DNA of 54,026 nt, from NCBI RefSeq assembly GCF_001949145.1, contig NW_019091480.1, forward strand, positions 1,151,235 to 1,205,260, written 5' to 3'. Source of the DNA: Acanthaster planci (Eukaryota). The first letter of the stretch is position 1, and the number at the start of each line of letters is the position of its first letter. Under the pieces are notes generated by a model that saw nothing but the letters and a program-made list of their open reading frames with translations, was not told where the DNA came from and ran no database searches. Made by a program: the position numbers and the translations under genes. This document shows, piece by piece, positions 1 through 28,030 of this stretch.

Positions 1-2900
1 ACATCAAGTGTACATACATGTATATGTACACATCAAGTCATGTTGTTCCGCTGGCACTTACCGTACAGCATATTGTTCAACAGTTTATGCATGTATGTAA
101 TTCAGGACTACATGTAGTTTACTCCTTCAAACAGCCCACTGACTGATCGACGAGCACCATGAGAGAAAATGAGTGAGTGTGGTGAAGTCAGAACATGAGC
201 TGCACTTACCAGCCGGTGTTGCTCCAAATATGCGCAGGACTGGTACCTGCTTGACCTCTGATCCCCGAAAGTCTGAGTAGGCCACATCCAGGTCCCTGAC
301 TGGCCGGGCCAGGTAGTGGTTGACCGTTACGATGCGAACGGAAAACATGACGGTCGGGGCGGTGGCAAGTTTACCGGTTACCCAGATGTCATTTCATTAG
401 CAGAACGCTGTGACGAAAAAATTTAAACAGGGCTTAAACCAATGTCACGATCAATCAATTAACAATGGTGCACAGCAAAACAAAAGCCTTCCTCATTTTA
501 ATCTACGTTCATGTACACATAAGTGGTACTAGTACATGTACAATGTACATGTGCAGTACTTCCTTCATACCGGTACATGTTATATCAAATTTAGGTTAAG
601 TTCTTCCACTAAACACTTTGTTGTAGAAGACAGTTCATTTCAGTGAATCGTTCTGCAATTATTCCACTTGACGGTGTTTCCTACACATGTACGTGCACAA
701 AGCGGTACATGTAAGAAAACCATTGTTGTCTGCTGTGGCGAGGTCTATGGTTTTGTACACCCAGGGGGGCAAATGGCAGCCCTCTTCTGTACTTGTATAA
801 TGTAATGGTTCATTATGTAAATCATAAATCACAAATCTGGCATGAAACACACTAAAGGGGGGCTGCATGGATTGAAAAAGCCCCAGCATGACTGGTTTCT
901 TTTGAAAGGTACACAGGTGCCAGATTTAATGTCAAAATGGACGAGGTATGGTACAATATACAATGTACATGTACAGTACGTACACATGTACAAATACATG
1001 TACTGATGTCTGATGCAACAACTTTGTAAGGGCTTGAAGAGTTCTACTGCTTCACTGGGACTACCAGTCCAGTCCACAGGATTAATTATTGATATGCGTC
1101 AAATGTTTCGGGTGGTGAACACCTTGGAAAAAATGAAAACCATTGGGGGAAACACTGAACATGACTGGCCCCTTAAATGACTGTATTTCGCATCCCCCTA
1201 CAAAAAATGATACAATCTTCATTGCACATGTACATGTACATGTATCACTGTGCAACATGTACCAGTACCGGTAGCTACATACATACATGTACAGACATGT
1301 ACATGTTGTTTGGTACATGTTGTTTGCTACATGTATCTGCTTGTGGAAGTCTGTAGCGTACAAAAATGCACTCTACACCGCATACACGTACAATTGGTTG
1401 TATGTACATACATGTACAGTGTCAGAGATACAAATTGGAATCAAAAGCAGAAACACCCAAATTGGAATCATGTACATGTACACGTAGTACACAATGACTG
1501 CAGTAGGCCTTCACCACATGGACATGAGGGATGGGACAATTTTGTTTGTGCGTACATACATGTAAGTCAAGACCATGTTGTGGATATTAGTGAGAAACAA
1601 AACAAAAACAACTACAGGAACATGTACATATGTAAATATGTAAATGTACTTGTACATGTATGTACATGTACATGTAATATACATGTACCATACATGCAGT
1701 ATGTGAGAACTGCATACCCAAGCAGTTTGTGCCAGGGGAAAAAAAGTGACATGGGATTCTTTTTCTCTAATCTCAACATATTTAGGACTATAATAACTCC
1801 TGCATGTACATGTACATGTACATGTATGCAGCAAAACAGATAATGTGCACAATTTATGCATGTATGCATGCTCAAGTACATTTGTATAGTAATAAGAGAC
1901 GATCACCAATGAAGACATTACCTGTACAGGTATGTTTTATGTACCAGTTCTTGTATATGTACATACATGTAAGTACAATGTACAGTACATGTACAGTGTA
2001 CATATGATACATGCACTCGTTCCACATCGGTACGCCGGGGTACCCTTCATCACTGTTCATGGCAATGCACATTTGAAGCTACATGTACATGTAGATATGG
2101 GACGGAAAGAACCCCTCCCCCCACCTTTGAGTTGGTCACTGTTTGATCGGAATCTCAGGAATTCTTTTCAGACTTCTAGGGGGGATGTGTTAGGTAAAAA
2201 TAGTCTAGAGTGTGTGTAGGGATTGGACAGGTAAGGGGGGTACCCCTCCGTCCCATATCTTGCCTGGGATAACAATATGCCGATATGTACATACATGTAC
2301 AGTATTTCAAAGTCCAATGTATCCATTCTCTCATTTTTTAACAGTGTGCAAATGTACATGTACATATACATGTACGCCTTACTGATGAACAATGCCAGAA
2401 ACAGTGTCCTGCACTCTGCAGAAGCACTGCATGATGTACGGTACATGCATGTACATAAATATGTGCATGTACATGAGTGCATCAGAACACACATTGTTTA
2501 CTTTGTAATACAGACACTAATTATTTGTGTAAAGTCTCTTGGTACACGTAAAGTACAGTACCAGTACATTACACACCATTCCTCAATCAGACGATGAGGA
2601 TTTATTTACATGTGTACATGAAGGTGCTGTACATGTACGTGGGTATAATTATTTTCCACACAGTTTGCAATGATATTTGGTGATAAAAATAGACTGAACA
2701 TGCGTACTTTACTTGAAGTTGAAGAGATATATGTCATGTTCTTCATAAAGACATTTTTCAAAACTTCTAAAAGAGTGACTTTGATCACGTAAAATACAAA
2801 TTAGCACCTTAAGATTTATAAAATGATTATATGGCATGTATGGGGATAATTAGGCATAACATGTACTTACATGCACATGTATATTTTTCGACTGATATAT
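1..2900. repeat. Low-complexity zone dominated by TGTACA/ACATGT (TGTACATGTACA...) palindromic hexamer microsatellite blocks. The same motif recurs at about 4420-5230, 5680-5710, 6590-6640 and in many introns.
   Basis: Direct reading shows many runs of tgtacatgtacatgtaca at 1-60, 480-560, 940-1000, 1230-1480, 1620-1700, 1800-2100 and 2340-2480. The long ORFs in this zone (e.g. 1250..1843) are Cys/Thr/Tyr/Met/His-rich translation artefacts of the repeat. Confidence 0.8.
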
Positions 2901-7478: not shown

Positions 7479-7557
7479 CCCAGCACTAGTGTGGCACGGA
7501 CTCTCGCTATCCATCCTAAAGGATGGAGCGGTAGCGAGAGTCCGTGCCACACTGGGG
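7479..7557. mobile_element. Short hairpin/palindromic element (MITE-like) with imperfect inverted arms of about 38 bp around a taaa loop and TA dinucleotides on both flanks
   Basis: The left arm cccagcactagtgtggcacggactctcgctatccatcc pairs with the right arm ggatggagcggtagcgagagtccgtgccacactggggc. The 20-bp core tgtggcacggactctcgcta is perfectly complementary. The flanks are ..gtTA and TAgt... Confidence 0.45.
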
Positions 7558-8620
7558 CTAGTATGATAGGCCTACATGTACATACGATCTGACGATGGTC
7601 TGACGGTGAGCCCGAACTCGCTCACCAACATAACGAAGAGCACTTGAGTGCAATTTTGATCACCACAGCATCTGTCAAATACCGAATACCTTGTCTTCAT
7701 TCTTTTCGGAACTAAGTCAAGATCTAAGTGATACAGCTTAAGGAAGATATGTGCTGTATACTCCAAGATAAGTGGGAAATTCTCACCTGCAATTTCAAAA
7801 CACCGACACACCTTCCAGCCCTCCGCATACATGGCGTATCCGATCATTATGCTCTGTACATTGTACGCAATGCATGTGCAAGTACACAGTGACCATACCG
7901 CTTGCACATTAATTTTGTGTACAATGTACACGTCAGAACTTGTAGTTGTACGTAACTGGCTGTTGGAAAATTAATTCAACGGAGGGCGCTCGAGTCACAA
8001 CAATAACTTCTGCATTGAAGAATTTATAGTGAAATATGCATATGAAGCTCAATTCTGCAAATCAACGATACGCTTTGGCATGACAAAAAACTGGTACTAG
8101 AAACGCTATGCATGGTGATAACACATTGCATGGGAACCAGTTCTTTAGTAGTCTTGCTTCGTGCGGCACCGTTCCCCTACTAACAGCGCTAACCTGGATG
8201 GGGCTCAAACCAACTTGCAATTTTTGCACATGGGCCTACTATTAGAAAGGGTATTAATCCATGTCCCTTTCTGTAGGACGAAGTTTGTCAACCATGCACA
8301 GTCCTCTACCCGATCAATCATGGGCATCCCTGCACATGCAGGGTGAAGCATTGGTATCCTCATCAACTTGACACGCTCAATTAACCCGGGACAACAATGC
8401 ATGAGTGATGGCCACTGAAAATTGAAAGGAAAATGAAAGATGAGACAGTGAACTATTTTGATGATGTGTTTTGAACACCTGTTAAAATGTGAGTATATTT
8501 ACTGATTTTTGGTGGGGACATTGGGGATCGACAAGTAGGGACATTATCAATGTTGTATATGGCAGCTAATTTTCTTGTCTGTACCCCTGTGGGGCCTATG
8601 GGGGGGATCAACGGTTTCGA

Positions 8621-8706
8621 GTCAACTCGGACCCAAACCAACTCGGACCCACAACCAACTCGGATCCAATACTAACTCGGACCCAAGACCAACTCGGACC
8701 CAACCC
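8621..8706. repeat. Minisatellite array of about 5 copies of a 16-17-bp unit NNNccaactcggaccc, the C-rich orientation
   Basis: The array reads tcaactcggacccaaaccaactcggacccacaaccaactcggatccaatactaactcggacccaagaccaactcggacccaacccc. Confidence 0.85.
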
Positions 8707-9992
8707 CAGGAGCGTGATTAACTTGTTGAAAATGTTTATTTTGTCCACTTTTACATTTTAGCATTTGGTAAATGACACTTTTGCACTGCATGCTGCCTAG
8801 ATTTAACGTCCTCTCTACACGTTATGCATGGAAACAGTGGCACAGGCTTCCCAGAATTTTTCCGTTTTCGAGTTTGAACAGGCATGGTGGTTAAAAACCG
8901 TACACTAGGACTAGATTTGATATCAGTGATGTCTTGGAACAAGTGATAAGTAACCGACGAGCGTCATATTTTTATGGAGGCACATTTCCTTTTATGTCTT
9001 ATTTGCCGCTTGTTATCTGGAATCTTAATTTGTAATCTTCCATTCTTGAAACCCTATGATCGGGGAGTGGGAGCTTGGGACAACCAATGGGAGCAGCTTT
9101 TGCAGTGTGATTGACAGTACCATGTCATTGACGCCGCAGTTTTTAGGCACTCCAGATCACCAGCAGAATTCGAATGAACTTTCACCAAACAGCCCCCAAA
9201 GTTTTTGTTGCAATAAAAAGCCACAGATAGGCCTTCTGATGTACATAAGATATACTGCATACGTACAACAGATACTGCAGATATACATCAATGTCACGAA
9301 CATTGACCTTTTACAGTGTCTAATGGTGTTATCCCCCACCTCACTTTTCATTTTTTTTTTGGCCTGACAAGTCTTACACCTTCACCTTGCCCCATCCCCC
9401 CGAATACCGGCAAAATTTAGGCAGATGGAGGAATTCATCCATTCAGGCCTAAGCTGACTCTTCAAATAACTCAAATAGGTTGGTAATCTTGAACAACACA
9501 AATCAAATCATTTTAAAATAAAAATGTGGAATATTTCCTATTGGCTTAAACTTGGAGACGGTTTTGAAGCGTCGTATGTCTGCTTGCGAGCTCGTTATTA
9601 ACATTTTGTGATCCCACGGTTTCTTATTTTCTGCAATAAGACGTGCCATAATCACGAGGGATCATAGAATTATTTATATAAATCTCGAATTTGGGATTGA
9701 TAGTTTCCGGTTCAGAGTATTTCTTTCACAAAAATCCCTACAATGCGGGCCTATTTTGGATAGAGGCAGGCGGGTACATTCATATGAGCGCATAGTTTTA
9801 CTACTATTAGGGGGGTATCTTCGGGAAAAGGCGAATAAAAAAGTTCATAAAATTGAAACGAAAAGTGATCAATCTGGCCATAATCTTGAAATTCCAGCCA
9901 AAAAAATGAAGACCAACCTCTTCGCGAGGTTCAAGAGTTGGCACTATTTTGGTCTACGGGCGCGTATTTGGTGTAATGCAACCTTGAGGCTG

Positions 9993-10195
9993 AGTGGGTC
10001 CGAGTTGACTCGAGGTGGGTCCGAAATGGCGTGGGTCCGAATTGACGTGGGTCCGAGTTGGTTGTGGGTCATAGATGGTGGTGGGTCCGAGTTAGTATTG
10101 GGTCCGAGTTGGCGTGGGTCCGAGTTGGTCCTGGGTCCAAGTTGGCATGGGTCCGAGTTGGAATGGGTCCGAGTTGGTTTGGGTCCGAGTTGACC
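9993..10195. repeat. Minisatellite array of about 12 copies of the same 16-17-bp unit in inverted orientation (gggtccgagttggNNN)
   Basis: The array reads gggtccgagttgactcgaggtgggtccgaaatggcgtgggtccgaattgacgtgggtccgagttggttgtggg...gggtccgagttgacc. It is the reverse complement of the 8621-8706 array. ORF 9756..10193 is the periodic GPSW/GSEL translation artefact of this array. Confidence 0.85.
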
Positions 10196-12039
10196 TGATC
10201 CCGGATCAACTGTCCTAATCAACCATTTAATGCACAAGGTCAAAAGCAAGGCTCGCATTTCCAAAGAAAGCACAACGACTGCTGTAGAGACTACAGGTAC
10301 CAGATTTATCAACAACGACCTTCACGCTTGGCCCGCACGACATAAAATAAACTTGTACAACCAAAGAGCAAGGACCCACCAAATCCTGTATCTTCATCAA
10401 CTTTTCATAGATGCGCTTTAAACTTGTTCCAGACTTTGCAGTCACATATACCCGCATCCATTATTCTTAAGCTGTAATACTGAAAATGCCGTTCATTTTT
10501 GACAATAATTTCTGAAGTTCTAAAGTATCGAGAAACGAAAACATAGGACTGGAAATTCTCTATGGTTTAAAGCGCGTAATTTCTATGAATAGAAACAGTC
10601 TAAAAATAGCAGTATGAAGTGAAAGAAGATGATTCGGTGAGGGTGTAGGCTGTACGGTTGCTCAAGTTTTTCACGATCAACTTGAAGGTTTTTATGGAAC
10701 GATCACTGACGATCGAATTCCTTCATTGCATCGTGTAGAAAGGAGACGTAAGTGTGCTTTTCTCGAGCTCCGTGGGATAATCTCCTTCCTCCAGAGCGAA
10801 CAGAATTAGACATGTTACTGTAGTGTTAGATGTAGGCCTAGCCTTATCACCAGCTGGCCCGATCCCGAGGCCTTCCGTAGGACTGATTTTGCACAACTGT
10901 GGAAAGGCATTGTGGGAAGGGAAAAGGACAATGTTTGCCCCTTTTCCCTGCCCAAACGATGCCTTTATACTATTGTGCAAAATCACTCTTGTGGTCTGAC
11001 AATTGACATGTTCTGAATGGGTGGTCTGTGAGGCTGAAGTTAGGCCTTATTTGCTTGTTTGACCTTCGGCGTTCGACATGTTCGATTTTAAACAAGCACT
11101 GATGGTAGGCCAACTGTTCGATGATGTTCAACAAGTAAGTAGGCCCATGGCCAAGCCGTTTGACATTCAAGATGCACATCCCAAAGAGCGAGGGAGTGTA
11201 AAAGGGACAAAAAACAAACTGTGCCAACTATACATTTCACGGCTTGTTGGACCCCGAAAAACCCCATGCCCCGCGGGTTGCAAGGAGTCGACGATGATTG
11301 AGGAGAACATGACATCAGATTAAATGTAATCCCAGGTGGGGCATGGGGTTTGGGTATTTAATTTCGCTTTGAAATAAGAAGTGTGATGCATTAACTTTCC
11401 CACTCTGGTTTGCAAGCCAAGAATTCAACCGACAAGACAAGTCCTTTTTGTCAAAGCCATTTTGACCTTGGTAATCTGCCTTTGCCCTGGTTGAAATGGA
11501 GGTTAAGAGGCGGGGCGTGGGATTGATGTATATCATTTGATTGACTGAAATAGTTTTTATGAAACGGCAAGTACACATGCATATACATGTAACACTAACC
11601 GTTTTTTCCCTCTAATAATTATACTGATTGTAAAAACATCGCCTACATTTTCAGGGTTTGTTTGACCCTGAAAAGCCCCATGCCCAAGGTTCCCTCTGGG
11701 AGACTTGAGTTGTTTGTGTACACACATCACTGTGAATGGCACGTACAATACATAATGTATAAATAGGATAGATATATGGGTGCATGGCAGAGTTTGGGTT
11801 TTTTTTTGTGCTTTTTGCACTCTAGTCTCTTAGAGATAAGCATCCATCCTCAAATAGTTACCTGTTCAACGTTCAAATATCAAACGGTTACTTGTTCAAC
11901 ATTGAATGTCAAATGTCAAACAAGGAACGAGGAACTACATGGTCTGTGACAAGTCTGATGTCTTGTGGTCGATCGGTGGTGACTTTGCTATATGTACATG
12001 TACCGCCAGAACTGTGAGGTCCAATATCCGCCCCGCTCC

Positions 12040-12095
12040 CACAAACAGGGCGGACGTCGGACCCCCACAAGCGGGGCGGACGTCGGACCCCACAG
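12040..12095 (+). promoter_or_regulatory. GC-rich tandem duplication of two 27-28-bp units, each carrying a GGGCGG (Sp1-type GC box), about 0.9 kb upstream of the PARP4 start codon
   Basis: cacaaacagggcggacgtcggaccccca is followed by caagcggggcggacgtcggaccccaca. Just 5' of these, ccgccccgctccc is a GC box on the opposite strand. Confidence 0.4.
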
Positions 12096-12985: not shown

Positions 12986-13117
12986 ATGGGCATTTTTAGC
13001 GACTGTCAGATAGCCTTGGACCTTGATGCAACCCAAGTCCCCTTCAAAAAGAAACAACTGCTCAGGCAACAGGTGACCAGCAATGGAGGAGTCATCTCCT
13101 ATATACTCACCAAGAAG
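12986..13117 (+). CDS. PARP4: PARP4/vPARP exon 1 (first coding exon, BRCT N-terminal half). Translation: MGIFSDCQIALDLDATQVPFKKKQLLRQQVTSNGGVISYILTKK.
   Basis: The ATG sits in a good Kozak context (caggggATGg). The peptide aligns to the human PARP4 N-terminus MVMGIFANC...QQQKKKLQTDIKENGGKFSF. The donor is aag|gtaagt, phase 0. The ORF-track ORF 12977.. begins at an upstream in-frame TTG. Confidence 0.85.
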
Positions 13118-13978
13118 GTAAGTCAGGATGCCAGGATGCTGAATGCACAAATTTTCTTCCCCCAAAACTACAAGTGCATCTACATTGTATTATTGAAGCC
13201 TTGTTCGGTAGTTCTGGTTGCAACTTGAAAAAAAATGGTAACCACTTCCAAGCTGCAGGTTGTAACTGCAACCACTGTAGGACAATAGATGTGCATGCTA
13301 TTGAATGCTGAAGTCATTTATCTCAAAGTACACAATTGTTTGCAAAAGGCATTAGTGTGAGAACCAGTGCTGGACCAACACATCATGTACTCAATTTGTT
13401 TGCTCTTCATGTCCTAGTTCAAATGGGGTCATCACATTTCAGTTCTGTATACTACCAGCAACAGCAAACGGATTTCAACTTCTGTTTACAACGCGGCAGG
13501 GGCATGTTTTCATGATTAGTAACCAGAAAGTCATTTTTGACTACCAAAAATAACCTAGAACAGGTTGAAAGAGGTCCACAAGAAAGGCAGTACTTGCCAG
13601 ACGCAGTCATGTCATCCTAGAGATACAATGTACATATACTGGGAGGAAAACCCCAGAGGAATATTCTGGGTAAAACCAACGGAATCAGGTAGGGACTGAG
13701 AACCCCAATTCACATGTGGACCAGGCCAAGATTCAAACCCGGACCACAGAGGCGGAAGGCGAGGAAAGAACCACTTCACTAACCTGACTCCCCGCCCACC
13801 TGAGTTCCCATTTGGGTTGAACAATGACGTCAGACAGGCATAACCAAATTTGCAAAAACACCCAACAAATTAAATGACCAAAGCGAAAACACATTTCTGG
13901 CTGCTGTCACAACTTTTGTGAATGTTTAAATCAAGCTCATTTTTGGAAAAAAATAATTTGCTGGTGATTTCTTCTCAG

Positions 13979-14177
13979 ACCTCCTACCTTGTCGCCAGCA
14001 ATGGGCCAAAGACGGCTGACTCCTACAAGGGACGCACGGCCAAGAAGCAAGGGGTGCCAATCATCAGCATGGGCTTCATTGAAAGGTGCCTAGAGGAAGG
14101 AAGGCTGGTAGACCACGAGGACTTCTTGCTGGTGGGCAAGACCAGCAGCATGCAGTTCAGCTCCGGCAAAATCATAG
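13979..14177 (+). CDS. PARP4: PARP4 exon 2 (BRCT C-terminal half). Translation: TSYLVASNGPKTADSYKGRTAKKQGVPIISMGFIERCLEEGRLVDHEDFLLVGKTSSMQFSSGKII(G).
   Basis: The acceptor is cttctcag at 13971-13978. The peptide is in frame with ORF 13922..14185 and carries a BRCT-like GxxxISxxFIxxC motif. The donor is atag|gtacat, ending in phase 1. Confidence 0.8.
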
Positions 14178-14654
14178 GTACATGAAAGTTGTGTTTGAAG
14201 GCTGCGGGCGCAGGATTTTTCAACATGTCATCACTGATATTACAAATGACCGTACCTCAGACTTATTCAGAATGGAGAGCTGAACTTTAATCATCACATA
14301 CCAGTTTCTCGTTTTGCCCTTAACGAGTATGCATGTGAGGATCCATGCGCAAGTCCATACATGCGGTAGTTCTGAGATAAAACTGTTGCATAGTTTGCAT
14401 AGTTGACATGGTTGACATAAGGCATGCGTGAGCATCCATCCTACTTGTTGTTACGCACACTACATGCAAACTACACATGATCAAACAGCAGTACGCAAAC
14501 CTTTTCCTTGGTCCTCAAATCTGAATGGCAATTGAACATTTCTGACTCTGAGGTATGGTATAACGAATTTGACTTTTATCTTGAAGGGGGGTGGTCAATT
14601 TTAGCTCCCCTTGGTATCTGTGAGAGTCAGGTTTGTTTTCTTGATTGTCAACAG

Positions 14655-14721
14655 CTGCAAAAACCCAACAGGAGCCCAAGAAGAAGGCCAAGGTGTTGTC
14701 TTTCAACATTAATAAAATCAA
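14655..14721 (+). CDS. PARP4: PARP4 exon 3 (small Lys-rich linker). Translation: (A)AKTQQEPKKKAKVLSFNINKI.
   Basis: The acceptor is tgtcaacag and the donor is caa|gtgagt. Its length of 67 nt (1 mod 3) is needed to join exon 2 (phase 1 out) to exon 4 (phase 2 in). Homology is weak, so the call rests mainly on phase consistency. Confidence 0.45.
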
Positions 14722-15135
14722 GTGAGTGTATTTTCTTCTTTCATCTTTTCTTCGTTTCTGCTACTGGTGCTTTTTCCCCGTCCTTCCAATCAAATGTCAA
14801 GTCAATCAGCAAGATTAAAGTCTGATTTCAAATCTTTAGTTTCTGCAGAAATGTTCAACTTGCGGTTGAGCCAAAGGCGGCTGATTTAGAAACCACTGGC
14901 TTATTGTTTGATTTCATTTCATGGTGTTCCCTTTTTTTCTCTTTTTTTTTATGAATTGCAATCATAGGGTAAATGCTTCAAGAGAGTTATTGAACTATGC
15001 CTCTTTATTTTGTGGAGGAAAAGATAAAAAATTACAGTTTGCTCAAGTATAATTTTGCATTCCTGAAAAGTCCGAATAATATTTCACAATTGTTTTTTTG
15101 TGGTCAGCATAAATTTCTTTTCTACATGTACTCAG

Positions 15136-15214
15136 GGTCTGGCCGTGGGGAAGTGTTGACACACCTGCTTATCCTGAGGACAAGTATGAGATTGCGAAGA
15201 GTGTTCTTCTGCAG
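15136..15214 (+). CDS. PARP4: PARP4 exon 4. Translation: (K)VWPWGSVDTPAYPEDKYEIAKSVLLQ.
   Basis: The acceptor is tgtactcag and the donor is cag|gtacct. PEDKYEIAKSVL matches human PQDFEVAKYNTL. Confidence 0.7.
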
Positions 15215-15864
15215 GTACCTGTACTCTTATGAAGCGCTTGATTATGCTATTTTTTGCTGCTAGTCTATGGGTTCTGTCTGAAAAGAGATCTATGGAACTT
15301 CTTTTGATGATTATAATTGTATTGCTCATACTTTACAGTGCTTTCCATCTACATGTCCGTGTACAATCTCAAAGTGCTTTCCAATAATCATCCTGTTCAT
15401 TAACACACCAGTCAGTGGCTGGTGTAAGGCACCTTTCCATATGTGCGTCAAATTGCTCCCAGGACGATTTCGATGGCACCAAACCCAACGCACACATGTG
15501 TTATGGTAATGGAGCTGATTTTGTGTCCGTGAAAGTGAAACGCATGAAGGTATCGTAACGCAATGCACCCAAAAAGTGTACATATGGAAAGGTGCCTATA
15601 GCCTACTCTGGTGACCGGAATTAGAAACCTTGACTGCAGGCCCATTCTGTTCACACCTGGGTGGTAGGCACATGTTGTGACTTTGCTGGTTGTGCATGCT
15701 GTCTCTATATACAGATAATTTTGTATCTTTTCATGTGCTTTAATTTACCAGTTATGCCAGTCAGCAGGGAATAGATCTTGTTGATTTTGTTTAGACAGTA
15801 GGCTAGAGCAGCATCAGTCTTTAGAGGAACTTCCATCTCAGACACTCAGATCCTGACACCAGGA

Positions 15865-16098
15865 GCCAATTTCATAGAGCTGCTAAAGCACAAAATTTGC
15901 TTAAGCGTGAAAAACCTTACTTGATAAATAAGGTTACCAGCTAAAACTCCATGTGATGTATAGTGTTTTGGCTTGGTATTCACCTGTCTTTTGGTTAGCA
16001 TGACAGTCACATAGATTTTGAGCTGATAACCTTTGTTTTTAAGCAAGGTTTTTTGTGCTTAAGCAAATTTTGTGCTTAAGCAGCTCTATGAAATTGGC
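15865..16098. mobile_element. MITE of about 234 bp with about 42-bp terminal inverted repeats and an extended internal palindrome, in the PARP4 intron between exons 4 and 5
   Basis: The left end gccaatttcatagagctgctaaagcacaaaatttgcttaagc and the right end gcttaagcaaattttgtgcttaagcagctctatgaaattggc are reverse complements. Internal segments (cttaagcgtgaaaaaccttacttgataaataaggttaccagct versus agctgataacctttgtttttaagcaagg...) also pair. Confidence 0.6.
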
Positions 16099-16192
16099 CC
16101 CAGATTGTAAGAGATGATTTGGGTGATGTCAGTAAGATTTGAACGTTTATCCCTTGTTCAGCACCAAACCAATTTTCTTTTTGGCTTTGCAG

Positions 16193-16354
16193 AAGAGAGA
16201 CACCAGGAGTAAAGATAGACTCTTCTATCACCTGGAGTTACACGTGGTTCCTGATGATGTCTTCAACTTGTCTAGGAACACCAAGGACAGTGGGCCAGCG
16301 TGTGATCACCCGTTCAGGGTTTTCACTCATCGCGGTGTACTCGATCACTTGATG
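16193..16354 (+). CDS. PARP4: PARP4 exon 5. Translation: KRDTRSKDRLFYHLELHVVPDDVFNLSRNTKDSGPACDHPFRVFTHRGVLDHLM.
   Basis: The acceptor is ctttgcag and the donor is atg|gtacga, phase 0 to phase 0. The peptide aligns to human VVVELQCSRDSRDCPFLISSHFLLDDGM. Confidence 0.75.
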
Positions 16355-17315
16355 GTACGAGGACTAGGAGTAAATGATAAGTTCTTAGCCCTTATAATGT
16401 CGTTCAAGCACTTTTGATACTAATCCGTAAGTGTGATTTCAAGGATGCTTACCCATTGCTAATTGGACTGATCCGGCAAGGAGATTTTTAATGACCCCTA
16501 ACTTTTCATCAGTGGCATGAGGATTAGGTTACAGGCACCTTTGCAGATTTTGCAACACCTACATATAACAGCATCGACACTGGTAACCATCGGCGAAATA
16601 ACTCCAGTTTCACAGAGGGCAAAACAAAAGACATTTCGTGCACAGCTGATCCTATTGAGTGTGTTTAAAGAGCCTGGAAAATATTGACTCGTGGTACATG
16701 TAAATCCATGGAAAAGTGGGTACATTATGGGTACATTATTTGCAGAGTACATGAAAAGAGCCCGTGGTCAGTCTCAAAAGAAAAGATTAGGAAAAGGGAT
16801 GCCTGTAATAACCCAAGCTAAAGTTGAGGGACCTTAGCCGCATCTATTCTTTTGAGCATAAATGAATGTTTAAGACTGGCCAGGCGTGCACGGTATTTAT
16901 TCACATTCATAAAACCTTTTGAGTCCGAAAGACAGAACAAGTTGAAAAATTATCAATTTATTTCCAACCGTTTTATTCAACACTTTTGCTTCATGTTTTC
17001 ATAAACGCCCTTCCAGCCATGTTATGGTAGGGGCCAAAGGTATTCACTACCCTTATATGGACATTGGTGCACACGTTGCATGTGCTACTTGGGTGCTGAA
17101 GAACATGAGAAGCAACGTAGGCCGTGTCCGAAACAGGTTTCCAGAGCTACGGCTAGGTCTATTGTCTACGCGTCTCCACGCATTTCCAATGGTGCGAAGA
17201 CCTAGACCTAGCTCTAGACAAGAGATTCGGATGCAGCCACTGTGTGAATTTCAGTCATTGTTTTCTCAAGCAGTTTTAAATGTTATAATGCTTTGGGTTA
17301 AAAGTGGATTGTTAA

Positions 17316-17366
17316 CCCTAACAGTCCTCAGTCCTCCAACAGGTGAAGGATTGAGGACTGTTAAGG
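17316..17366. mobile_element. Short TTAA-flanked hairpin element with CCCTAAC... termini, a piggyBac-like MITE remnant, in the intron between exons 5 and 6
   Basis: The sequence is TTAA|ccctaacagtcctcagtcc...ggattgaggactgttaagg|TTAA. The arms are reverse complements and TTAA is present on both flanks. Confidence 0.5.
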
Positions 17367-17522
17367 TTAATGTGTGAATAATTTGGTTACTAATGTAGCT
17401 CCCAAATGCTTTTGTTTTGAAAAAGTCTCTTCAGGGCATATGCATGTTACTGTGCTCAACAACAGCTTTGCCGATGTGTTAATATCTTTTGAGGAATGCA
17501 TAATTCCATTTTTATTCCACAG

Positions 17523-17678
17523 GACGAAGACTCTGGCGCCAGAGAGGTCCGCTACTGCAACTCCAGTGAGGAAGCTCTAGAGACGTACAGCTTCCTGTAT
17601 CACCAGCAACAGCAGCATGGCATGAGCAGAGGCAAGAAGGCAGCCTCGCGCTGGATCGGCTCCCCTAAATATAGACAG
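17523..17678 (+). CDS. PARP4: PARP4 exon 6. Translation: DEDSGAREVRYCNSSEEALETYSFLYHQQQQHGMSRGKKAASRWIGSPKYRQ.
   Basis: The acceptor is ttattccacag and the donor is cag|gtacaa. SEEALETYSFLYHQQQQHG matches human SEDASEYFENYIEELKKQG. Confidence 0.75.
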
Positions 17679-18883
17679 GTACAATGGAGCTGACGGCTCA
17701 GAGGGGGACGGAATTCTGGGTTATAGGAAGTGGGATCGTTGGTAAGAGGCTGCAAGACGATGTGCCTAGGAGTGAGGGGAACAGTTGCTTACCTAGTGTA
17801 GAGTCCAGGACTCAGACTCGGGTTTCTCTCGAGTTGCAATTTGGTGACAGACTTGCCTTGAGTCACGTCAGCAAAGGACATGGACTCCATGCACGTTTGT
17901 TTTCACTCCCTGTGCTTACGTGAAAACGAGATCGTACAACTTTGCAGATATTTACCTACCTGCACTTGATGGGTTCTAGATTAAGTTGAGTTGACTTGGT
18001 GCCGTTCTTGTCAGCAACGTTACAAGCAGCGTACGAGGCCACCCAGTTGCACTGGTCTTCATATATTTTAGATGTTTAGAAGCGAGAGGTCAAATTTTAG
18101 CAGGACATTTCTCTTGCAGGTCGGGTAATTTTTAAGTTTCTATAAATTAATATGCTAGCAAACATTATGCAAAGGTCTTTTTCCGAGAAGATTTTTTAAG
18201 AAGTAAACGAACAGAAATTATTACGTATTCTAAAATTGTTGCACATTATTTTTCCTATCCAAAGGTTCCAGAAGCATTAAAATGCTTCTAACCAGATGGC
18301 TTATTTTGACAAAAAATGCATTGAGTCTTTTCATATTGTGATAAAAATTTCTCCCTCTTTGAGCAATATCCCTGACATGATGGAGAGGCGATAGTTCAGA
18401 ACTCTTTCGCTATGCACGTACATGCACATGATCACAGACCAGTCTGCCTTCCCTCCATCCACTTTCAGTGTCTTAAAATGAAGGTTGCCAAAAAGCCTAA
18501 AGTTTTTGATTTTTGTTCCCGAATCATACCAATCCAACAAAATTCTGCATGCATATCTATGTGATTTACACTATTAACTGTAGGGTTAGGTCTAATAAAT
18601 TCCAGAGAGGACGTTAAGGGGAAAATCTGATGATGTTCCTGAGCAAGCCTGTTTATCGCAATGCTGTATGTATGTCCTCCCAGGATGTGAATTTTTAAAT
18701 ATCCTAGCCTTTGTTCTGTTCTCTGTTCTCTGCGGTTCCTGGTTCCCTTTTCACTCTGTTTTCTGTTCCGTTTTATTTCATTTTGATTTATTTCCCCAGT
18801 CACACTCGTATACCTCTGCCAATTTCATGGCTTGACGGTCAGGGATAGCATTAAACCACAATACTTGAATTGCTTTCTTCCAG

Positions 18884-19021
18884 ACTCAGCTGAGCATCGG
18901 GGAGGAAGAGGATGAGATGAGTCTAGAGGTGGCCTCCCTGGTGGCCAGTCTGTGGAAGGAGACGCTGGGAGAACTGGAAGACATCCTGGCTGTGGACATC
19001 AAGACCCTCACCTCCGAGAAG
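18884..19021 (+). CDS. PARP4: PARP4 exon 7. Translation: TQLSIGEEEDEMSLEVASLVASLWKETLGELEDILAVDIKTLTSEK.
   Basis: The acceptor is ctttcttccag and the donor is aag|gtacac. EVASLVASLWKETLGELEDIL matches human EVSDLVEMIWAEALGHLEHML. Confidence 0.8.
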
Positions 19022-19140
19022 GTACACGCTCTAGATGATTTCTTCTGGCTCTCTGCAGTTGACTTCGCAAGGCCAACTCGCATTCGGCAAATAAACCTTC
19101 TTGTCCATTTTGTTTTCATATTTTGACATCTCATCAACAG

Positions 19141-19332
19141 GTGTCCAAGGCAGAGAGCATCCTCCTCCAAATCAGGAAAGCTCTGGATGGGGGAGGTGAC
19201 GATACTGATAAGTTTGAGGCGAGCATTGAGACCCTGAGCCAGGAGTTCTACAGCCAAATACCCCACAAGAGCGAGCACAAGAAAGACATCAAGACAAAGA
19301 GTGTGATCGCCAAGAAGCAGGATTTGTGCCAG
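19141..19332 (+). CDS. PARP4: PARP4 exon 8. Translation: VSKAESILLQIRKALDGGGDDTDKFEASIETLSQEFYSQIPHKSEHKKDIKTKSVIAKKQDLCQ.
   Basis: The acceptor is catcaacag and the donor is cag|gtactg. There is strong similarity to human VSKAEGILLLVKAALKNGETAEQLQKMMTEFYRLIPHKG...LLAKKADLCQ. Confidence 0.88.
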
Positions 19333-19814
19333 GTACTGGTCTCTCGGTGTGTTAAATAAAACTTTTACTCATTCGAAGTGAGGTTATGGAATATTCAAAT
19401 GTAATCCAGTTTGGGAGATGGATTATCAAAAGTTTCCCAAGATATATGAAAACATTTTGAAAGACCCATTGTTTAACTTGTACTTGCTGGCAGAATCTAG
19501 TACTAAAATCTTATGATTTTGACTTTGTTCATATTCCATTATTGTCAACCTCATTCTCCTGTTTTGAATCTCTAGCAGTTGGCTTTAGCAAAGTAGAGGG
19601 AAATCATTTCTAGCTGCATATTTCCCTTTCAGAGTCTCTTGGTGATTTTGTGATTGCAATCACTCTTAATATCTGTCACATCTAGATGACTATTTGTCAT
19701 GACTATCCCAAATTTGCCTTGTTTTTCTGTCGCAACCCTTCGAACAGCTCAAAAAAAGGTATAAGGCAAGAAGTTTTGAAACTCACAACATATCTTCACC
19801 TGTTCATTGGTCAG

Positions 19815-19972
19815 CTTATCAAAGACGTAGTCAGCGTGAGCGAGACAACTAACTGGTCGCAGCGGAGCAGTGTAGAGTCCAAGTACAGAGCCCTACGCTG
19901 TCACATCAGCTGCTTACCCGACAACCATCCCCACTACTACGATGTCAAGAACTTCATTATCTCTACACAAGG
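19815..19972 (+). CDS. PARP4: PARP4 exon 9. Translation: LIKDVVSVSETTNWSQRSSVESKYRALRCHISCLPDNHPHYYDVKNFIISTQ(G).
   Basis: The acceptor is cattggtcag and the donor is gg|gtatga, ending in phase 2. KYRALRCHI matches human AKYRALRCKI. Confidence 0.85.
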
Positions 19973-20710
19973 GTATGAGCCCAAAGCCTTTCCGAAAATG
20001 CTCTAGTTAAAGTTCGTCAAAAAGCTGTTTTGAAAAAGGGGTCCCCAATTTTTTTCCCACTTTTACAATAAATTACAAGCCCTCGGCTTTTGGATCTCAG
20101 AAATGGATAAAAATCAGTTTACACTTGTTCTTGACAGTTCCGGCAGTGGCTTAAAAACTCAAGAGTTGAACTCATGAGGCACCACTGTGGGCATATCTCA
20201 GTCTCTTGATTATAGTAAAGAATAGCTTTGAGTAAAATGGCTTTTCAAGCTACATGTGCACTTATCTGACTTAGTGTTTTGAGAATGTGCTGTCTGTTCA
20301 CGTGCTGAGATGAACTCTGAAGCAAAACTGACACTGAATCTGAGACCGCATTGAGGTCTGAATAAGGGCTTGGATTTGAGGAGAGAGGATAAAACTGTCC
20401 CTGACAGTATTTGTGTTGTCGCACATCATTCGAGGTAGACCTAGGGATGTGATGGTGTATGGGTTACCATGAGCGGTGATGAATTCTTAACTTTTGCTTG
20501 CTAGCTGTTGTACAAATGTTTCCAATTCAACGTACATGTACCGTCAAATCTTGTCGTACCTTGTTTTGTTGCTGTCAAAAGTGTGCTTGCTTGGTTGTAC
20601 TGAAATAAGTGACCCCTAGTTTGCTTACTGGAACACTGGGGATAACGAGCACAAAGTACTTTGACATGCCCAAACCATTTTTAACCTGACGATTTTTATG
20701 TACTTTGAAG

Positions 20711-20848
20711 GAAGAAGCTAGCTGAAATCCTGCGCGTCTTTGCTGTGACGCGCCCTTTAGAGTTAACTAGCTTTGATGCCAAGCTGCACAACAGTCGTCT
20801 GCTGTTCCATGCATCCCGGCCAGCTAACTTTGTGGGCATCCTTTCAAG
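20711..20848 (+). CDS. PARP4: PARP4 exon 10 (start of the PARP catalytic domain). Translation: (G)KKLAEILRVFAVTRPLELTSFDAKLHNSRLLFHASRPANFVGILS(R).
   Basis: The acceptor is ctttgaag and the donor is caag|gtcggt, phase 2 in and phase 2 out. The NAD-fold His motif LLFHASRxxNxxGIL matches PARP LLHGSxxxNxxGIL. Confidence 0.85.
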
Positions 20849-21460
20849 GTCGGTACAAGTCCCAAAGCAACACTGTGCACCAGATTCAAGAGAGTGGAAT
20901 TCTATTCAAATCTTGGGAATGAGCTTGTCCAAATTTCAATGGAGGATAGAATATGCCACTTGTGTAAAACTTTGCTTGGTTATACGGATACACAGCACAC
21001 ACGTTCTTTGCAAGTTATTTTTTTAGCTGTTAACAGTTTCTGTACTGTTGTCGAGGGATTGTCAGTCTTGTGTCCTCATAGGCATGGTATAAATTTGTAA
21101 GTGAATTTCCGCCACTGATTTGCAAAATAGGAACCCTCAAAGAAAACTTGAGGAAACTCACCGATTGAACCAATAAAGCATTGCCCAGTTTGTCAGTGCC
21201 TTTTTGCTGGAGAGTCAGTACTTTCCGCACCTTGCTTATGGGCCAGATGTGCACTGAAAATGTGCATATGGAAAGGCCTCTTCAGTTTGCAAGCGTTACT
21301 ACCCCTGGTTTCTATGCAGTCAGGGACCACATCCAAGTTTGTGATGTGGTAGAGGGAGGGAATATGTATTGTGGAAATGAGTTGTAAATCAGTAACTATT
21401 TCAAGGAGCTCATTATGATGCGTTGTATAATGGTGCTGCTGGTTGTGTCAATGCCAACAG

Positions 21461-21559
21461 AGGCCTTATCCTGCCCAAGGTGGTGGTGGATGACTTTGGC
21501 GGGGAGAGGACGGATGCTGGCATGCTGGGCAGTGGAATCTACTTCGCTGACAACTTCAG
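21461..21559 (+). CDS. PARP4: PARP4 exon 11 (PARP catalytic domain). Translation: (R)GLILPKVVVDDFGGERTDAGMLGSGIYFADNF(S).
   Basis: The acceptor is gccaacag and the donor is cag|gtattt. The GSGIYFAD motif carries the catalytic Tyr. The peptide matches human GLLLPKVVEDRGVQRTDVGNLGSGIYFSD. Confidence 0.9.
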
Positions 21560-21815
21560 GTATTTCCTCCTGAAGCATGATTTTTTTTTTAATTTGATAC
21601 AAGTTTGAGCAAAGATATGGTAACCGTGGCAGCCTCTAAGAAGGCACTACAAAACCTGCTCTTTGAGCCCTGCATGAAGTTTAGGAAGTGAAGATTGAGC
21701 ACCGAGAGAACTAAATTTGAGATGGAAGAGACCGAGAGCAGTGTCATAATCGATTCTGTCAGAAGTCCTTACAAGTCCATCACAAGGCAATCAGTTGGTG
21801 GCAGATTCAAGTACT

Positions 21816-21948
21816 ATTCAAATGAACTATGACAAAAGCATTCCTGTGTTATTGTAGACCCTGTTACTTGAAGTCTTAAGTAACTTAGGACTTGAAGTAA
21901 CAGGGTGAACAATAACACAGGAATGCTTTTGTCATATTTCATTTGAAT
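21816..21948. mobile_element. Near-perfect palindrome of 133 bp (arms about 62 bp) in the intron between exons 11 and 12, a foldback/MITE-like element
   Basis: The left arm attcaaatgaactatgacaaaagcattcctgtgttattgtagaccctgttacttgaagtc is the reverse complement of the right arm gacttgaagtaacagggtgaacaataacacaggaatgcttttgtcatatttcatttgaat. The centre is ttaagtaacttag. Confidence 0.6.
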
Positions 21949-22289
21949 TTGATAATTTCTTGTGTCTCTGGAACTGTACTTGAAATTAGCTGCCAGTTTG
22001 ACTTCTCTGCTAGCCACAGAATAATATTGTGTTATGCACTCATGATCGCTTTTCGTGCTTTAATGCAGGACTTGCCAAGAAACTCTGTACACTCCCTGGA
22101 ATCCTTGCAAAAAATATGCATGCGCATAATCTGTGATTCCTTCTTCACCATAAAACAGGACTCGCGTCAGCAAAGAGCAACAACGTACCAAGCGTACATG
22201 TATTGTCTTTCAGTAGTGTGACAAAGCCACGTAATTGGGCCTTCGATATCCTTACATGAGATGATTTCCCTTTTTCTTTTCAACCACAG

Positions 22290-22473
22290 CACCAGCGCCA
22301 AGTACTCCCACATCAGCCACACTCGAGGCACCCGCCTGATGACAATCAACCAGGTGGCCCTCGGGATATGTTATGAGACAACCAGCTACCATAAGGACTT
22401 CACCGAACCCCCGGATGGCTTCCATAGCGTCCACGGGGTCAGGAATGATGGCTCCAATCGTTCCGATTTCAAG
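22290..22473 (+). CDS. PARP4: PARP4 exon 12 (PARP catalytic domain). Translation: (S)TSAKYSHISHTRGTRLMTINQVALGICYETTSYHKDFTEPPDGFHSVHGVRNDGSNRSDFK.
   Basis: The acceptor is caaccacag and the donor is aag|gtgact. The peptide matches human TSIKYSHPGETDGTRLLLICDVALGKCMDL...PPGYDSVHGVS...TDFE. Confidence 0.9.
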
Positions 22474-23177
22474 GTGACTGCGTATGCACACTGTTTTCTG
22501 TCAGTGAAGAACTTACATGTAACTGGCGATCTTTTCAGAGCTCATTTGTTTTCTTTAGTTTGAAATTTTGGGTGCTGTGCAGCCTAGTGGTTCAGGTTTG
22601 TGATAAGGATCATAGAGTCAGGGGTTCGAATCCAACAGCTGGTTACATTTTGTCCTCTCAGGTCTATGGTCCTTATTGAAAAATTGCAATAAAAGGTCAT
22701 TATTAAAAAAAAATAGATTTGGTTAAATTTGAAGTATATTGGCTCCAAGAACTAGTTGTACAAATACAACAGCCTCGGACATGTTTTGTTCCAGATAAAT
22801 ATTATTTTCCAGCTCAGAATCAGGGCCTTAGTGTGTTGCCCAAAATCATTTGACTGTCCTAAGGACCTTTTATTTACTGAACCAACGTCGTGACCTCGGG
22901 CAAGTGACTTTTGTGCTGTGTTTCTTGAAGCACTGAAATAGACCAAAATGGAGAACCGTGATTTGTCAGCTGCACCACAAAGTGACGGACCATCCATAGA
23001 CTTTATACACACGGTACGACAGGTTGTGGTGCTGGAACTATCCATAGTTCGTTAGTTCGTTATGCATCCGATGACTTCAAGCCGTTTGCTTTGTCCAGTC
23101 AGAGTGCAAACAAACCTTTACCAGTCAGATCTGTCCCGTTCCAAAATCTCATCGTTCAGAGGACTTTAATCCTGCAG

Positions 23178-23364
23178 GATGACGAATATGCAGTTTACAG
23201 CACTGAGCAGCAGCGTCTGCGCTATGTGGTTGAGTTTACTCTGCCCGGTGACAAACCCAAGCTGACCACTGGTCAAGCTCTCGCTGGCGAGGCTAATGTT
23301 TGCAGCGAAGAAGACAGCGATGGTCAAGCCAGCGATACGGAGGGGGACAAGTCGAGCGCCATCG
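23178..23364 (+). CDS. PARP4: PARP4 exon 13 (end of the catalytic domain, with the catalytic Glu in DDEY). Translation: DDEYAVYSTEQQRLRYVVEFTLPGDKPKLTTGQALAGEANVCSEEDSDGQASDTEGDKSSAI(G).
   Basis: The acceptor is atcctgcag, phase 0. DDEYAVYSTEQ matches human DDEFVVYKTNQ. The donor is atcg|gtaagc, ending in phase 1. A longer version starting near 23099 is out of phase with exon 12. Confidence 0.8.
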
Positions 23365-27919: not shown

Positions 27920-28030
27920 TTAATGTTTTTCTTTCTACTCCTGATTGTCTACCGGTTGATCATAAAAATTTTTGGTCAAAGTGTTTGTTTTTCTGCACAT
28001 GCTGTAAAAATTAAGTTTTATTTCTTACAG

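What the first reader, a model, noticed from the sequence alone, without database searches (positions are those of the whole stretch)
8621..10195. Foldback-type element with arms made of inverted arrays of a 16-17-bp minisatellite
The unit ccaactcggaccc (about 5 copies at 8621-8706) reappears about 1.3 kb away as its reverse complement gggtccgagttgg (about 12 copies at 9993-10195). Inverted termini built of tandem subrepeats, with unequal copy number between the arms, are the hallmark of foldback transposons. The interior has no transposase ORF, so the element would be non-autonomous. It could also promote cruciform extrusion or genome instability just 3 kb upstream of the PARP4 promoter.
Basis: seen in the sequence. 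Interest (0 to 1): 0.5.

Follow-up and report, generated by a model that had tools for sequence, protein, structure and literature searches.

The report
Foldback-like non-autonomous DNA transposon insertion
A 1.6-kb piece of non-coding DNA whose two ends are mirror-image arrays of a 16-17-bp repeat, flanked by an 8-bp duplication, is most likely a defunct-looking 'jumping gene' of a well-known structural type sitting 2.8 kb upstream of a PARP4-like gene; it is real but ordinary.

Summary
A 13-bp core, CCAACTCGGACCC, spaced every 16-17 bp, occurs 5 times at 8622-8701 (+) and 12 times at 9996-10193 (inverted), and nowhere else in 54 kb (chance expectation 0.45 hits against 15 found). The arms are truly homologous: the outer 31 nt are identical and both share a variant unit. 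An exact 8-bp direct repeat, GGATCAAC (8605-8612 and 10203-10210), starts exactly where arm homology ends; 0.09% of random boundary pairs show this. The 1,294-bp interior has no domain hit and no real homologue. The single strand is predicted to fold back arm-to-arm.

Best reading: a non-autonomous cut-and-paste DNA transposon at 8613-10202 (1,590 bp), with internally repetitive terminal inverted repeats. This is a foldback-like structure, as in Galileo, Tetris and Drosophila FB. The 8-bp TSD and GG…CC termini fit Merlin and also Mutator-type elements, but the superfamily cannot be assigned without a transposase.

Caveats:
- The right junction is palindromic, which allows a no-TSD reading.
- The cruciform/instability idea is weak, given a 1.3-kb spacer and 83-90% arm identity.

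Verdict: a new member of a known kind, of low to moderate interest.

The parts
8605..8612 (.). Left copy of the putative 8-bp target-site duplication, GGATCAAC
   Evidence: Exact direct repeat of 10203-10210. It ends where the inverted-repeat homology begins. A repeat of at least 8 bp abutting both boundaries (+/-2 bp) occurs in 0.09% of 200,000 random boundary pairs.
8613..8621 (+). Left terminal cap, GGTTTCGAG (5'-GG terminus)
   Evidence: It aligns without gaps to the reverse complement of the right cap, GGGATCAGG (5 of 9 matches, terminal GG shared). Together with the first core it forms an imperfect 22-nt palindrome, 16 of 22.
8622..8701 (+). Left arm: 5 tandem units of the 13-bp core (C/T)CAACTCGGACCC with 3-4-bp spacers
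   Evidence: The outer two units plus spacer are identical to those of the right arm. Unit 4 (AATA-CTAACTCGGACCC) recurs as right unit 7.
8702..9995 (.). Non-coding middle domain, 1,294 bp
   Evidence: It shares no homology with the arms or with the rest of the window. The ORFs wholly inside it are at most 103 aa. None of the 8 ORFs scanned reaches a Pfam threshold; the best hits are E 0.013 and 0.13, far below the cut-offs. There are no protein relatives and no Rfam hit. CpG observed/expected is 0.76 against 0.52 for the window.
9996..10193 (-). Right arm: 12 tandem units of the same core in inverted orientation
   Evidence: Inverted-repeat pairs I1-I8 are 80-90% complementary to the left arm. 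The innermost unit plus spacer (9995-10013) is a perfect 19-nt inverted copy of the left terminus (I15).
10194..10202 (-). Right terminal cap, CCTGATCCC (reverse complement GGGATCAGG; ...CC-3' terminus)
   Evidence: The ungapped TIR alignment has 35 matches in the first 39 positions (37 of 48 overall) and ends exactly at the direct repeat.
10203..10210 (.). Right copy of the putative 8-bp target-site duplication, GGATCAAC
   Evidence: Caveat: together with the last bases of the element it forms the palindrome TGATCC-C-GGATCA.

Best explanation
Window 8613-10202 is a single insertion of a 1,590-bp non-autonomous class II (cut-and-paste, TIR-type) DNA transposon. Its terminal inverted repeats are built from tandem copies of a 13-bp core spaced every 16-17 bp, which is a foldback-like architecture.

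Shown by the sequence:
- The two arms are homologous inverted arrays of 5 and 12 units, each capped by a 9-bp terminal segment beginning with GG.
- An 8-bp direct repeat flanks the element.
- The 1.3-kb middle domain is non-coding.
- The single strand can snap back arm-to-arm.

Inferred by analogy with Galileo, Ac and En/Spm-type subterminal repeats:
- A transposase encoded elsewhere in the genome binds the reiterated 13-bp cores as multiple binding sites and synapses the two ends.
- It cuts at the GG/CC termini and inserts at an 8-bp staggered cut, whose repair produced GGATCAAC on both sides.
- Replication slippage or unequal exchange within the arrays then changed copy number independently in each arm (5 versus 12).

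The intact TSD, the identical outer 31 nt and the retained CpGs suggest a fairly young insertion. The 8-bp TSD and GG...CC ends fit the Merlin superfamily best among those checked. Mutator-like elements (the usual home of foldbacks) and the P superfamily are not excluded.
For: - **Arrays:** real, confined to this locus and inverted.
- **Arm homology beyond the motif:** the outer 31 nt are identical, the variant unit AATA-CTAAC is shared, and homology stops at the inner edge of the arrays.
- **TSD:** an exact 8-bp direct repeat abuts both TIR ends. P = 0.0009 for random boundary pairs; 1.1% of random 30-mer pairs share any 8-mer.
- **No coding capacity or RNA family in the interior**.
- **Snap-back:** in the single-strand DNA minimum-energy fold of 8605-10210, 81 of 98 left-arm bases pair with the right arm. 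The duplex energy is -94.7 kcal/mol, against -30.5 +/- 4.1 for shuffled arms.
- **Youth:** 15 of 17 cores keep their CpG in a window with CpG observed/expected 0.52.
- **Literature:** foldback-like elements have TIRs with tandem-repeat domains, a non-coding middle domain and 8-10-bp TSDs, and the structure arises in several superfamilies (PMC4079207). The two TIRs of one Galileo copy can differ in repeat number, and such repeats are proposed or shown to be secondary transposase-binding sites (PMC3573991). Merlin has TIRs of 24-462 bp, a conserved terminal 5'-GG and 8-9-bp TSDs (PMC8101967).
Against: - Only one copy is available. No second copy of the arms, termini or interior exists in the 54-kb window.
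- The source genome could not be searched, so repetitiveness, empty sites and an autonomous partner are all untested.
- The right junction is a palindrome. Left GGGATCA (8604-8610) can therefore be read instead as the TIR tip, with a 10-bp indel and no TSD. The chance of that coincidence (about 0.002) is similar to that of the direct repeat (0.0009).
- The outer 9-bp caps match at only 5 of 9 positions.
- The arms are short for a classical foldback.
- The role of the cores as transposase-binding sites is pure analogy.
Confidence: 0.72

Rival explanations
1. A composite structure. Each arm is (part of) a separate short array-bearing element inserted in opposite orientation, and the 1.3-kb 'interior' is ordinary host DNA caught between them. 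The pair may or may not have moved as a unit, as Drosophila FB pairs do.
For: The interior shares nothing with the arms and has no transposon features. The right arm carries a perfect copy of the left-terminus sequence on its inner side (9995-10013, I15), as if that arm had two ends of its own.
Against: The 8-bp direct repeat lies at the outer ends of the pair, as expected for one insertion event of the whole unit. No direct repeats flank the individual arms: the inner flanks AACCCCAGG and ACTCAGCC are unrelated to the outer flanks. If the pair moved as a unit, this rival merges into the main explanation.
Confidence: 0.12
2. Not a mobile element. A local minisatellite was duplicated in inverted orientation, for example by template switching or fold-back replication repair, and the flanking 8-mer is a coincidence.
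For: There is a single copy in the window. The palindromic right junction is the kind of sequence that template-switch events produce. Similar cores occur by convergence in unrelated coding minisatellites.
Against: An inverted duplication should copy unique flanking sequence along with the array, yet homology is limited to the units plus a 9-bp cap. The abutting 8-bp direct repeat is expected in only 0.09% of cases. The direct repeat - inverted repeat ... inverted repeat - direct repeat layout is the canonical signature of a transposase insertion.
Confidence: 0.08
3. A host cis-regulatory module. The two arrays would be clusters of binding sites for a host DNA-binding protein, bracketing a 1.3-kb segment upstream of the PARP4-like gene (insulator- or enhancer-like), possibly co-opted from a transposon.
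For: The position is 2.8 kb upstream of the BRCT-encoding first coding exon. The 13-bp core is strongly conserved, with 7 of 13 positions invariant and 15 of 17 CpGs kept.
Against: There is no evidence of function, no cross-species comparison was possible, and there is no match to any known family. Core conservation is equally well explained by youth or by array homogenisation.
Confidence: 0.04

Closest known systems
Foldback-like DNA transposons with internally repetitive TIRs (Drosophila FB, Galileo/Kepler/Newton, Tetris)
   Same: The TIRs contain tandem direct repeats, and copy number differs between the two arms of one copy. The middle domain is non-coding, most copies are non-autonomous, and TSDs are 7-10 bp (PMC4079207; PMC3573991).
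   Different: The arms here are much shorter (89 and 207 bp against hundreds of bp to kb). The repeat unit is 16-17 bp, against about 210-220 bp in Galileo F and Tetris. The arms consist of units right up to a 9-bp cap, with no separate flanking or inner TIR domains. There is no sequence similarity, and the host is a different, unidentified animal.
Sea-urchin TU elements (Liebermann et al. 1983, cited in PMC4079207; details recalled from memory, not checked here)
   Same: As I recall them, they have long terminal inverted repeats whose outer domain is made of short (about 15-bp) tandem repeats, a variable middle domain, and short TSDs. If that is right, this is the closest match in unit size.
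   Different: No TU sequence was available for comparison and the host clade is unknown. The arms here are several times shorter. This resemblance rests on memory only.
Merlin superfamily (IS1016-like) non-autonomous elements
   Same: An 8-bp TSD, a terminal 5'-GG, and TIR length within the 24-462-bp range (PMC8101967).
   Different: No DDE_Tnp_IS1595 transposase is linked to the element. Among the papers read here, tandemly repetitive TIRs were not described as a Merlin trait. TSD length and the GG terminus are weak, non-exclusive criteria.
Subterminal-repeat transposons (maize Ac/Ds, En/Spm; from general knowledge)
   Same: Many copies of a short transposase-binding motif occupy the 100-300 bp next to each end, with different numbers at the two ends.
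   Different: In those elements the motifs are scattered in both orientations and are not a regular head-to-tail array. Their termini and TSDs (CACTA with 3 bp; YARNG with 8 bp) do not match this element's GG ends.

Membership tests
Foldback-like (structural class of TIR transposons) | Terminal inverted repeats composed of, or containing, tandem direct subrepeats | tested here: met
   5 and 12 units of a 13-bp core at 16-17-bp spacing in opposite orientation.
Foldback-like (structural class of TIR transposons) | Long TIRs (hundreds of bp to kb) that make up a large share of the element | tested here: inconclusive
   The arms are 89 and 207 bp, which is 19% of 1,590 bp. They are far shorter than in Tetris (up to 1,735 bp) or Galileo (about 900-1,260 bp). 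No agreed lower limit exists.
Foldback-like (structural class of TIR transposons) | Flanking target-site duplication (7-10 bp in described families) | tested here: met
   GGATCAAC at 8605-8612 and 10203-10210, P = 0.0009. Caveat: the palindromic right junction allows a no-TSD reading.
Foldback-like (structural class of TIR transposons) | Non-coding middle domain in non-autonomous copies | tested here: met
   No ORF wholly inside the interior exceeds 103 aa, and there is no Pfam hit or homologue.
Foldback-like (structural class of TIR transposons) | The single strand snaps back on itself | tested here: met
   In the predicted single-strand DNA minimum-energy fold, 81 of 98 left-arm bases pair with the right arm. 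The duplex energy is about 15 sd below that of shuffled arms. This is a prediction only.
Any transposon family | Multiple dispersed copies with different flanks in the host genome | not testable with these tools
   The source genome is absent from all collections. Exact ORF look-ups failed. The best PARP4-exon relative is only 79% identical at the DNA level. The metagenome, viral and prokaryote scans gave only unrelated unidirectional coding repeats.
Merlin superfamily | 8- or 9-bp TSD | tested here: met
   8 bp under the preferred reading. The criterion is from PMC8101967.
Merlin superfamily | Conserved terminal 5'-GG | tested here: met
   5'-GGTTTCGAG...CTGATCCC-3'. The criterion is from PMC8101967.
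Merlin superfamily | Mobilised by a DDE_Tnp_IS1595 transposase with matching TIRs | not testable with these tools
   No transposase lies in the element, and no genome is available in which to look for an autonomous partner.
hAT superfamily | 8-bp TSD together with short TIRs starting YARNG (terminal motif recalled from general knowledge) | tested here: not met
   The TSD length fits, but the termini are GGTTT and GGGAT, not YARNG.
Mutator-like / Phantom (the superfamily assigned to most foldbacks) | TSD typically 8-10 bp (4-10 bp across MuDR), and a MULE transposase in autonomous copies | tested here: inconclusive
   An 8-bp TSD lies within the range (PMC4079207; PMC10045372). The transposase is not testable.
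MITE | Miniature size (usually below about 800 bp; from general knowledge), with high copy number | tested here: not met
   The element is 1,590 bp, and copy number is unknown.

The most novel reading that the evidence does not exclude
This could be a young, possibly still mobilisable member of an undescribed foldback-like family in an animal lineage that is absent from current protein and contig collections. Its whole TIR would be a regular array of 13-bp transposase-binding sites, and it would be mobilised by a Merlin-type (IS1016-like) transposase. I did not find that superfamily described with foldback-type repetitive TIRs in the papers I read. If so, it would add another independent origin of the foldback architecture.
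Probability: 0.2. Interest if true: 0.35.

Novelty: new member of a known kind. Interest (0 to 1): 0.22.

Why it matters
It matters only modestly. It is a clean single-locus example of a transposon whose inverted ends are nothing but reiterated short motifs. That supports the view that multiple transposase-binding sites and foldback architecture arise repeatedly in different superfamilies. For annotating this genome, 8613-10202 should be masked as a DNA transposon and not treated as a PARP4 regulatory feature or a fragile site. If the family proves to be multi-copy and polymorphic, the arrays (5 versus 12 units) would be a handy marker of recent transposon activity and a possible seed for satellite formation, as shown for Tetris. 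The suggested risk to genome stability near PARP4 is speculative. In duplex DNA a 1.3-kb spacer should make cruciform extrusion negligible, and only long single-stranded intermediates would let the arms interact.

Tried and rejected
1. **Other copies via translated array and interior ORFs.** Exact look-ups of ORFs 9756-10193 and 42467-44335 failed. A homology search with the array ORF gave no hits. Exact look-ups of six more window ORFs found nothing in the collection.
2. **Exhaustive HMMER search with interior ORF 9056-9364.** It gave one hit, P0122 (E 2e-4). I rejected it: the protein is a bacterial Kelch/Ig-repeat surface protein, and the score is the sum of seven weak matches to one 34-residue stretch.
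3. **Collection scans for two tandem units.**
   - Metagenomes gave 5 loci, all unidirectional, with period 15 or 18 (coding-type repeats, for example the period-15 repeat in L004) and GC 40-70%. Homology is limited to the core.
   - Viral contigs gave 0 hits.
   - Prokaryote genomes gave 2 hits, in an actinobacterium and an Acidobacteriota MAG; I did not inspect them and take them to be chance matches. None is related to the element.
4. **Host identification.** The PARP4 VIT/vWA exons confirm the gene, but the best relative is 96% identical at the protein level and 79% at the DNA level, from an unnamed ENA metagenome contig. The 622-aa ORF has no relatives. ENA record names are uninformative.
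5. **Rfam on 7500-11500.** Nothing near threshold.
6. **Literature search for the unit as a text string.** Only unrelated PCR primers.
7. **Alternative element limits 8617-10013**, based on the perfect 19-nt inverted repeat. Rejected because no direct repeat flanks those limits and array units continue beyond 10013.
8. **THAP-type binding motif (TxxGGGx[A/T], recalled from memory) in the unit.** The units do not fit it by inspection, so I did not pursue it.
9. **The 26-bp tandem repeat at 12038-12091**, which shares TCGGACCC...ACAA with the unit. The similarity is too short to distinguish from chance.

Full report

Yes. Reading 8300-10500 shows a left array of CCAACTCGGACCC units and, about 1.3 kb to the right, an array of the reverse complement GGGTCCGAGTTGG.
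- Tandem Repeats Finder reports 8623-8703 (period 17, 4.8 copies) and 10015-10192 (period 16, 10.8 copies).
- GGGTCCGAGTT with up to 1 mismatch occurs 15 times in the 54-kb window. All 15 lie in these two blocks, with opposite strands for the two blocks. The chance expectation is 0.45, and no shuffle out of 100 reached 15.
- With the 13-mer and up to 3 mismatches, all 17 units are recovered. The 11 weak hits elsewhere match the chance level of 7.5 +/- 2.7.
- Unit-by-unit dissection gives 5 left units (8622-8701) and 12 right units (10193 down to 9996), spaced 16-17 bp apart.

**2. Are the arms homologous, or just the same motif twice?**

They are homologous.
- Read from the outside in, both arms start with a 9-bp cap (GGTTTCGAG and GGGATCAGG), followed by an identical 31-nt stretch, GTCAACTCGGACCCAAACCAACTCGGACCCA.
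- Both arms contain the distinctive variant unit AATA-CTAACTCGGACCC, as left unit 4 and right unit 7.
- Inverted-repeat pairs reach 80 nt at 83% and 40 nt at 90% complementarity.
- The homology ends at the inner edge of the arrays, and the adjacent interior sequences do not align.
- The right arm is therefore an expanded version of the left.

**3. Target-site duplication**

An exact 8-mer, GGATCAAC, lies at 8605-8612 and 10203-10210, immediately outside the ungapped TIR alignment.
- Only 1.1% of random 30-mer pairs from the window share any 8-mer.
- Only 0.09% of 200,000 random boundary pairs have an exact direct repeat of at least 8 bp abutting both boundaries within +/-2 bp.
- This delimits an element of 1,590 bp at 8613-10202, reading 5'-GGTTTCGAG...CTGATCCC-3'.

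There is a caveat. The right junction is a palindrome (TGATCC-C-GGATCA), so left GGGATCA (8604-8610) equals the reverse complement of the right terminal 7-mer. One can therefore read the TIR as starting at 8604, with a 10-bp indel and no TSD. That coincidence has a chance probability of about 0.002.

I prefer the TSD reading for three reasons. It needs no indel (35 of the first 39 positions match without gaps). The boundary of arm homology and the direct repeat coincide. And the TSD was a prediction made before I looked. It is not proven.

**4. Content**
- The 1,294-bp middle domain has ORFs of at most 103 aa wholly inside it. Eight ORFs scanned against Pfam gave nothing near threshold.
- The array-spanning ORF has no relatives among 5.8 billion proteins.
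- The 103-aa ORF gave one marginal hit in an exhaustive search. That hit is a repeat-inflated artefact against a bacterial Kelch/Ig-repeat protein.
- Rfam finds nothing.
- No part of 8500-10320 recurs elsewhere in the window.
- CpG observed/expected is 0.76 in the interior against 0.52 for the window, and 15 of 17 cores keep their CpG. Together with the intact direct repeat, this points to a relatively recent insertion.

**5. Foldback potential**

With DNA energy parameters, the minimum-energy fold of the whole single strand (8605-10210) pairs 81 of 98 left-arm bases with the right arm. The arm-arm duplex energy is -94.7 kcal/mol, against -30.5 +/- 4.1 for shuffled arms. Physically, this is snap-back DNA.

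**6. What it is and how it most likely works**

The layout (direct repeat, inverted repeat, non-coding middle, inverted repeat, direct repeat) is the signature of a cut-and-paste class II transposon mobilised in trans.

The literature read here describes foldback-like elements as follows:
- Their TIRs contain tandem repeats, their middle domain is non-coding, and their TSDs are 8-10 bp. The architecture evolves independently in different superfamilies (PMC4079207).
- In Galileo the two TIRs of a single copy can hold different numbers of repeats. Such repeats are proposed, and in one subfamily reported, to carry secondary transposase-binding sites (PMC3573991).

By analogy, I infer four steps:
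1. The 13-bp cores are reiterated binding sites for a transposase encoded elsewhere.
2. The two ends are synapsed and cut at the GG/CC termini.
3. Insertion occurs at an 8-bp staggered break.
4. Slippage or unequal exchange later produced the 5-versus-12 difference between the arms.

The structure, the direct repeat, the lack of coding capacity and the predicted fold are shown. The binding, the trans-mobilisation and the slippage history are inferred.

**7. Superfamily**
- An 8-bp TSD with a terminal 5'-GG fits Merlin, which has TIRs of 24-462 bp, a conserved 5'-GG and 8-9-bp TSDs (PMC8101967).
- It is also within the Mutator/MuDR range (PMC10045372; PMC4079207), which is where most foldbacks are placed.
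- hAT fits on TSD length, but not on its terminal motif as I recall it.
- Without a transposase-bearing relative, the superfamily cannot be assigned.

**8. Could other copies be found?**

No. The window comes from an animal genome carrying a PARP4-like gene. Pfam finds a BRCT domain in the first coding exon (start near 12,986) and a PARP catalytic-domain match at about 20.7 kb; ORFs at 22.3-23.4 kb look by eye like the rest of that domain. Homologues of the VIT (about 25.4 kb) and vWA (28.2-28.9 kb) exons carry those Pfam domains.

That genome is not in any searchable collection:
- Exact ORF look-ups fail.
- The nearest PARP4-exon relative is 96% identical in protein but only 79% in DNA.
- A fast-evolving 622-aa ORF has no relatives at all.
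- Pattern scans of metagenome, viral and prokaryote contigs returned only unrelated, unidirectional repeats. Those inspected (the metagenome loci) have coding-type periods of 15 or 18.
- A literature search for the unit string found only primers.

The decisive test, genome-wide copies with their own TSDs, therefore remains open.

**9.
- The element lies 2.8 kb upstream of the PARP4-like start codon, so '3 kb upstream' is about right. The promoter itself was not mapped.
- Cruciform extrusion is unlikely in duplex DNA. Yeast data show roughly a 40-fold loss of IR-induced recombination when the spacer grows from 12 to 20 bp, and a steep loss with arm divergence. Widely spaced, divergent IRs become dangerous only in long single-stranded regions (PMC10164571). 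Here the spacer is 1.3 kb, and the arms are 83-90% complementary over stretches of 40-80 nt.

**10. Rivals**
- *Composite of two separate array-bearing elements around host DNA.* The terminus-like unit on the inner side of the right arm (9995-10013, a perfect 19-nt copy of the left terminus, I15) hints at this. However, the direct repeat sits at the outer ends of the pair.
- *Local inverted duplication with a chance direct repeat.* This is disfavoured because no unique sequence is duplicated and because of the P of 0.0009.
- *Host regulatory array.* There is no evidence for it.

**11. Verdict**

This is a real feature with a convincing transposon signature, and it belongs to a well-known structural kind. 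I rate it a new member of a known kind, with confidence 0.72 in the main explanation and interest about 0.2.

Noticed in passing
window 10875-10994: A near-perfect hairpin of about 120 nt (arms 10881-10913 and 10956-10988), 0.7 kb to the right of the element. The RNA fold is -64.6 kcal/mol, z = -9.65 against shuffles. Rfam gives only sub-threshold plant-miRNA-like matches (E 0.26-0.65). It could be a palindromic MITE or a miRNA-like hairpin.
   Followed up: partly
window 9995-10013 versus 8617-8635: The innermost unit of the right arm, with its spacer (TGGGTCCGAGTTGACTCGA), is a perfect 19-nt inverted copy of the left terminus. It matches the left terminus better than the right terminus itself does. 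This suggests an internal duplicate of a terminus or an older nested end (I15).
   Followed up: partly
window 12986-30500 (+ strand): A PARP4-like gene. Pfam finds BRCT_2 (E 5e-7) in the first coding exon (start near 12,986) and a PARP catalytic match at about 20.7 kb (PF00644, E 4.8e-8); ORFs at 22.3-23.4 kb look by eye like the rest of the catalytic domain. The VIT exon is at about 25.4 kb and the vWA exons at 28.2-28.9 kb. The closest relatives are unnamed ENA contigs (up to 96% over the VIT exon), and no same-species protein is in the collection.
   Followed up: partly
window 42467-44335 (+): A 622-aa open reading frame with GFSFG / FG-type repeats and a basic, serine- and alanine-rich tail. 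It has no homologue at E <= 1e-5 among 5.8 billion proteins. It may be a fast-evolving C-terminal PARP4 exon or a separate gene.
   Followed up: partly
window 12038-12091: A 26-bp unit repeated 2.1 times (CCCACAAACAGGGCGGACGTCGGACC), about 0.9 kb upstream of the PARP4-like start codon. It shares TCGGACCC...ACAA with the transposon unit, which is probably chance.
   Followed up: partly
window 950-2600: A dense run of TGTACATGTAC / ACATGT-type microsatellite-like repeats, which generates long spurious ORFs rich in C, T, H, V and Y.
   Followed up: no
L004 2199-2335 (metagenome contig Ga0224511_10008430, GC 40%): A 15-bp tandem repeat, CTCGGACCCGGTCAA, in 9 copies. It contains the same AACTCGGACCC core but in one orientation only and with a period divisible by 3, so it is probably a pentapeptide-repeat exon of an unrelated eukaryote. 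This shows that the core can arise by convergence.
   Followed up: yes
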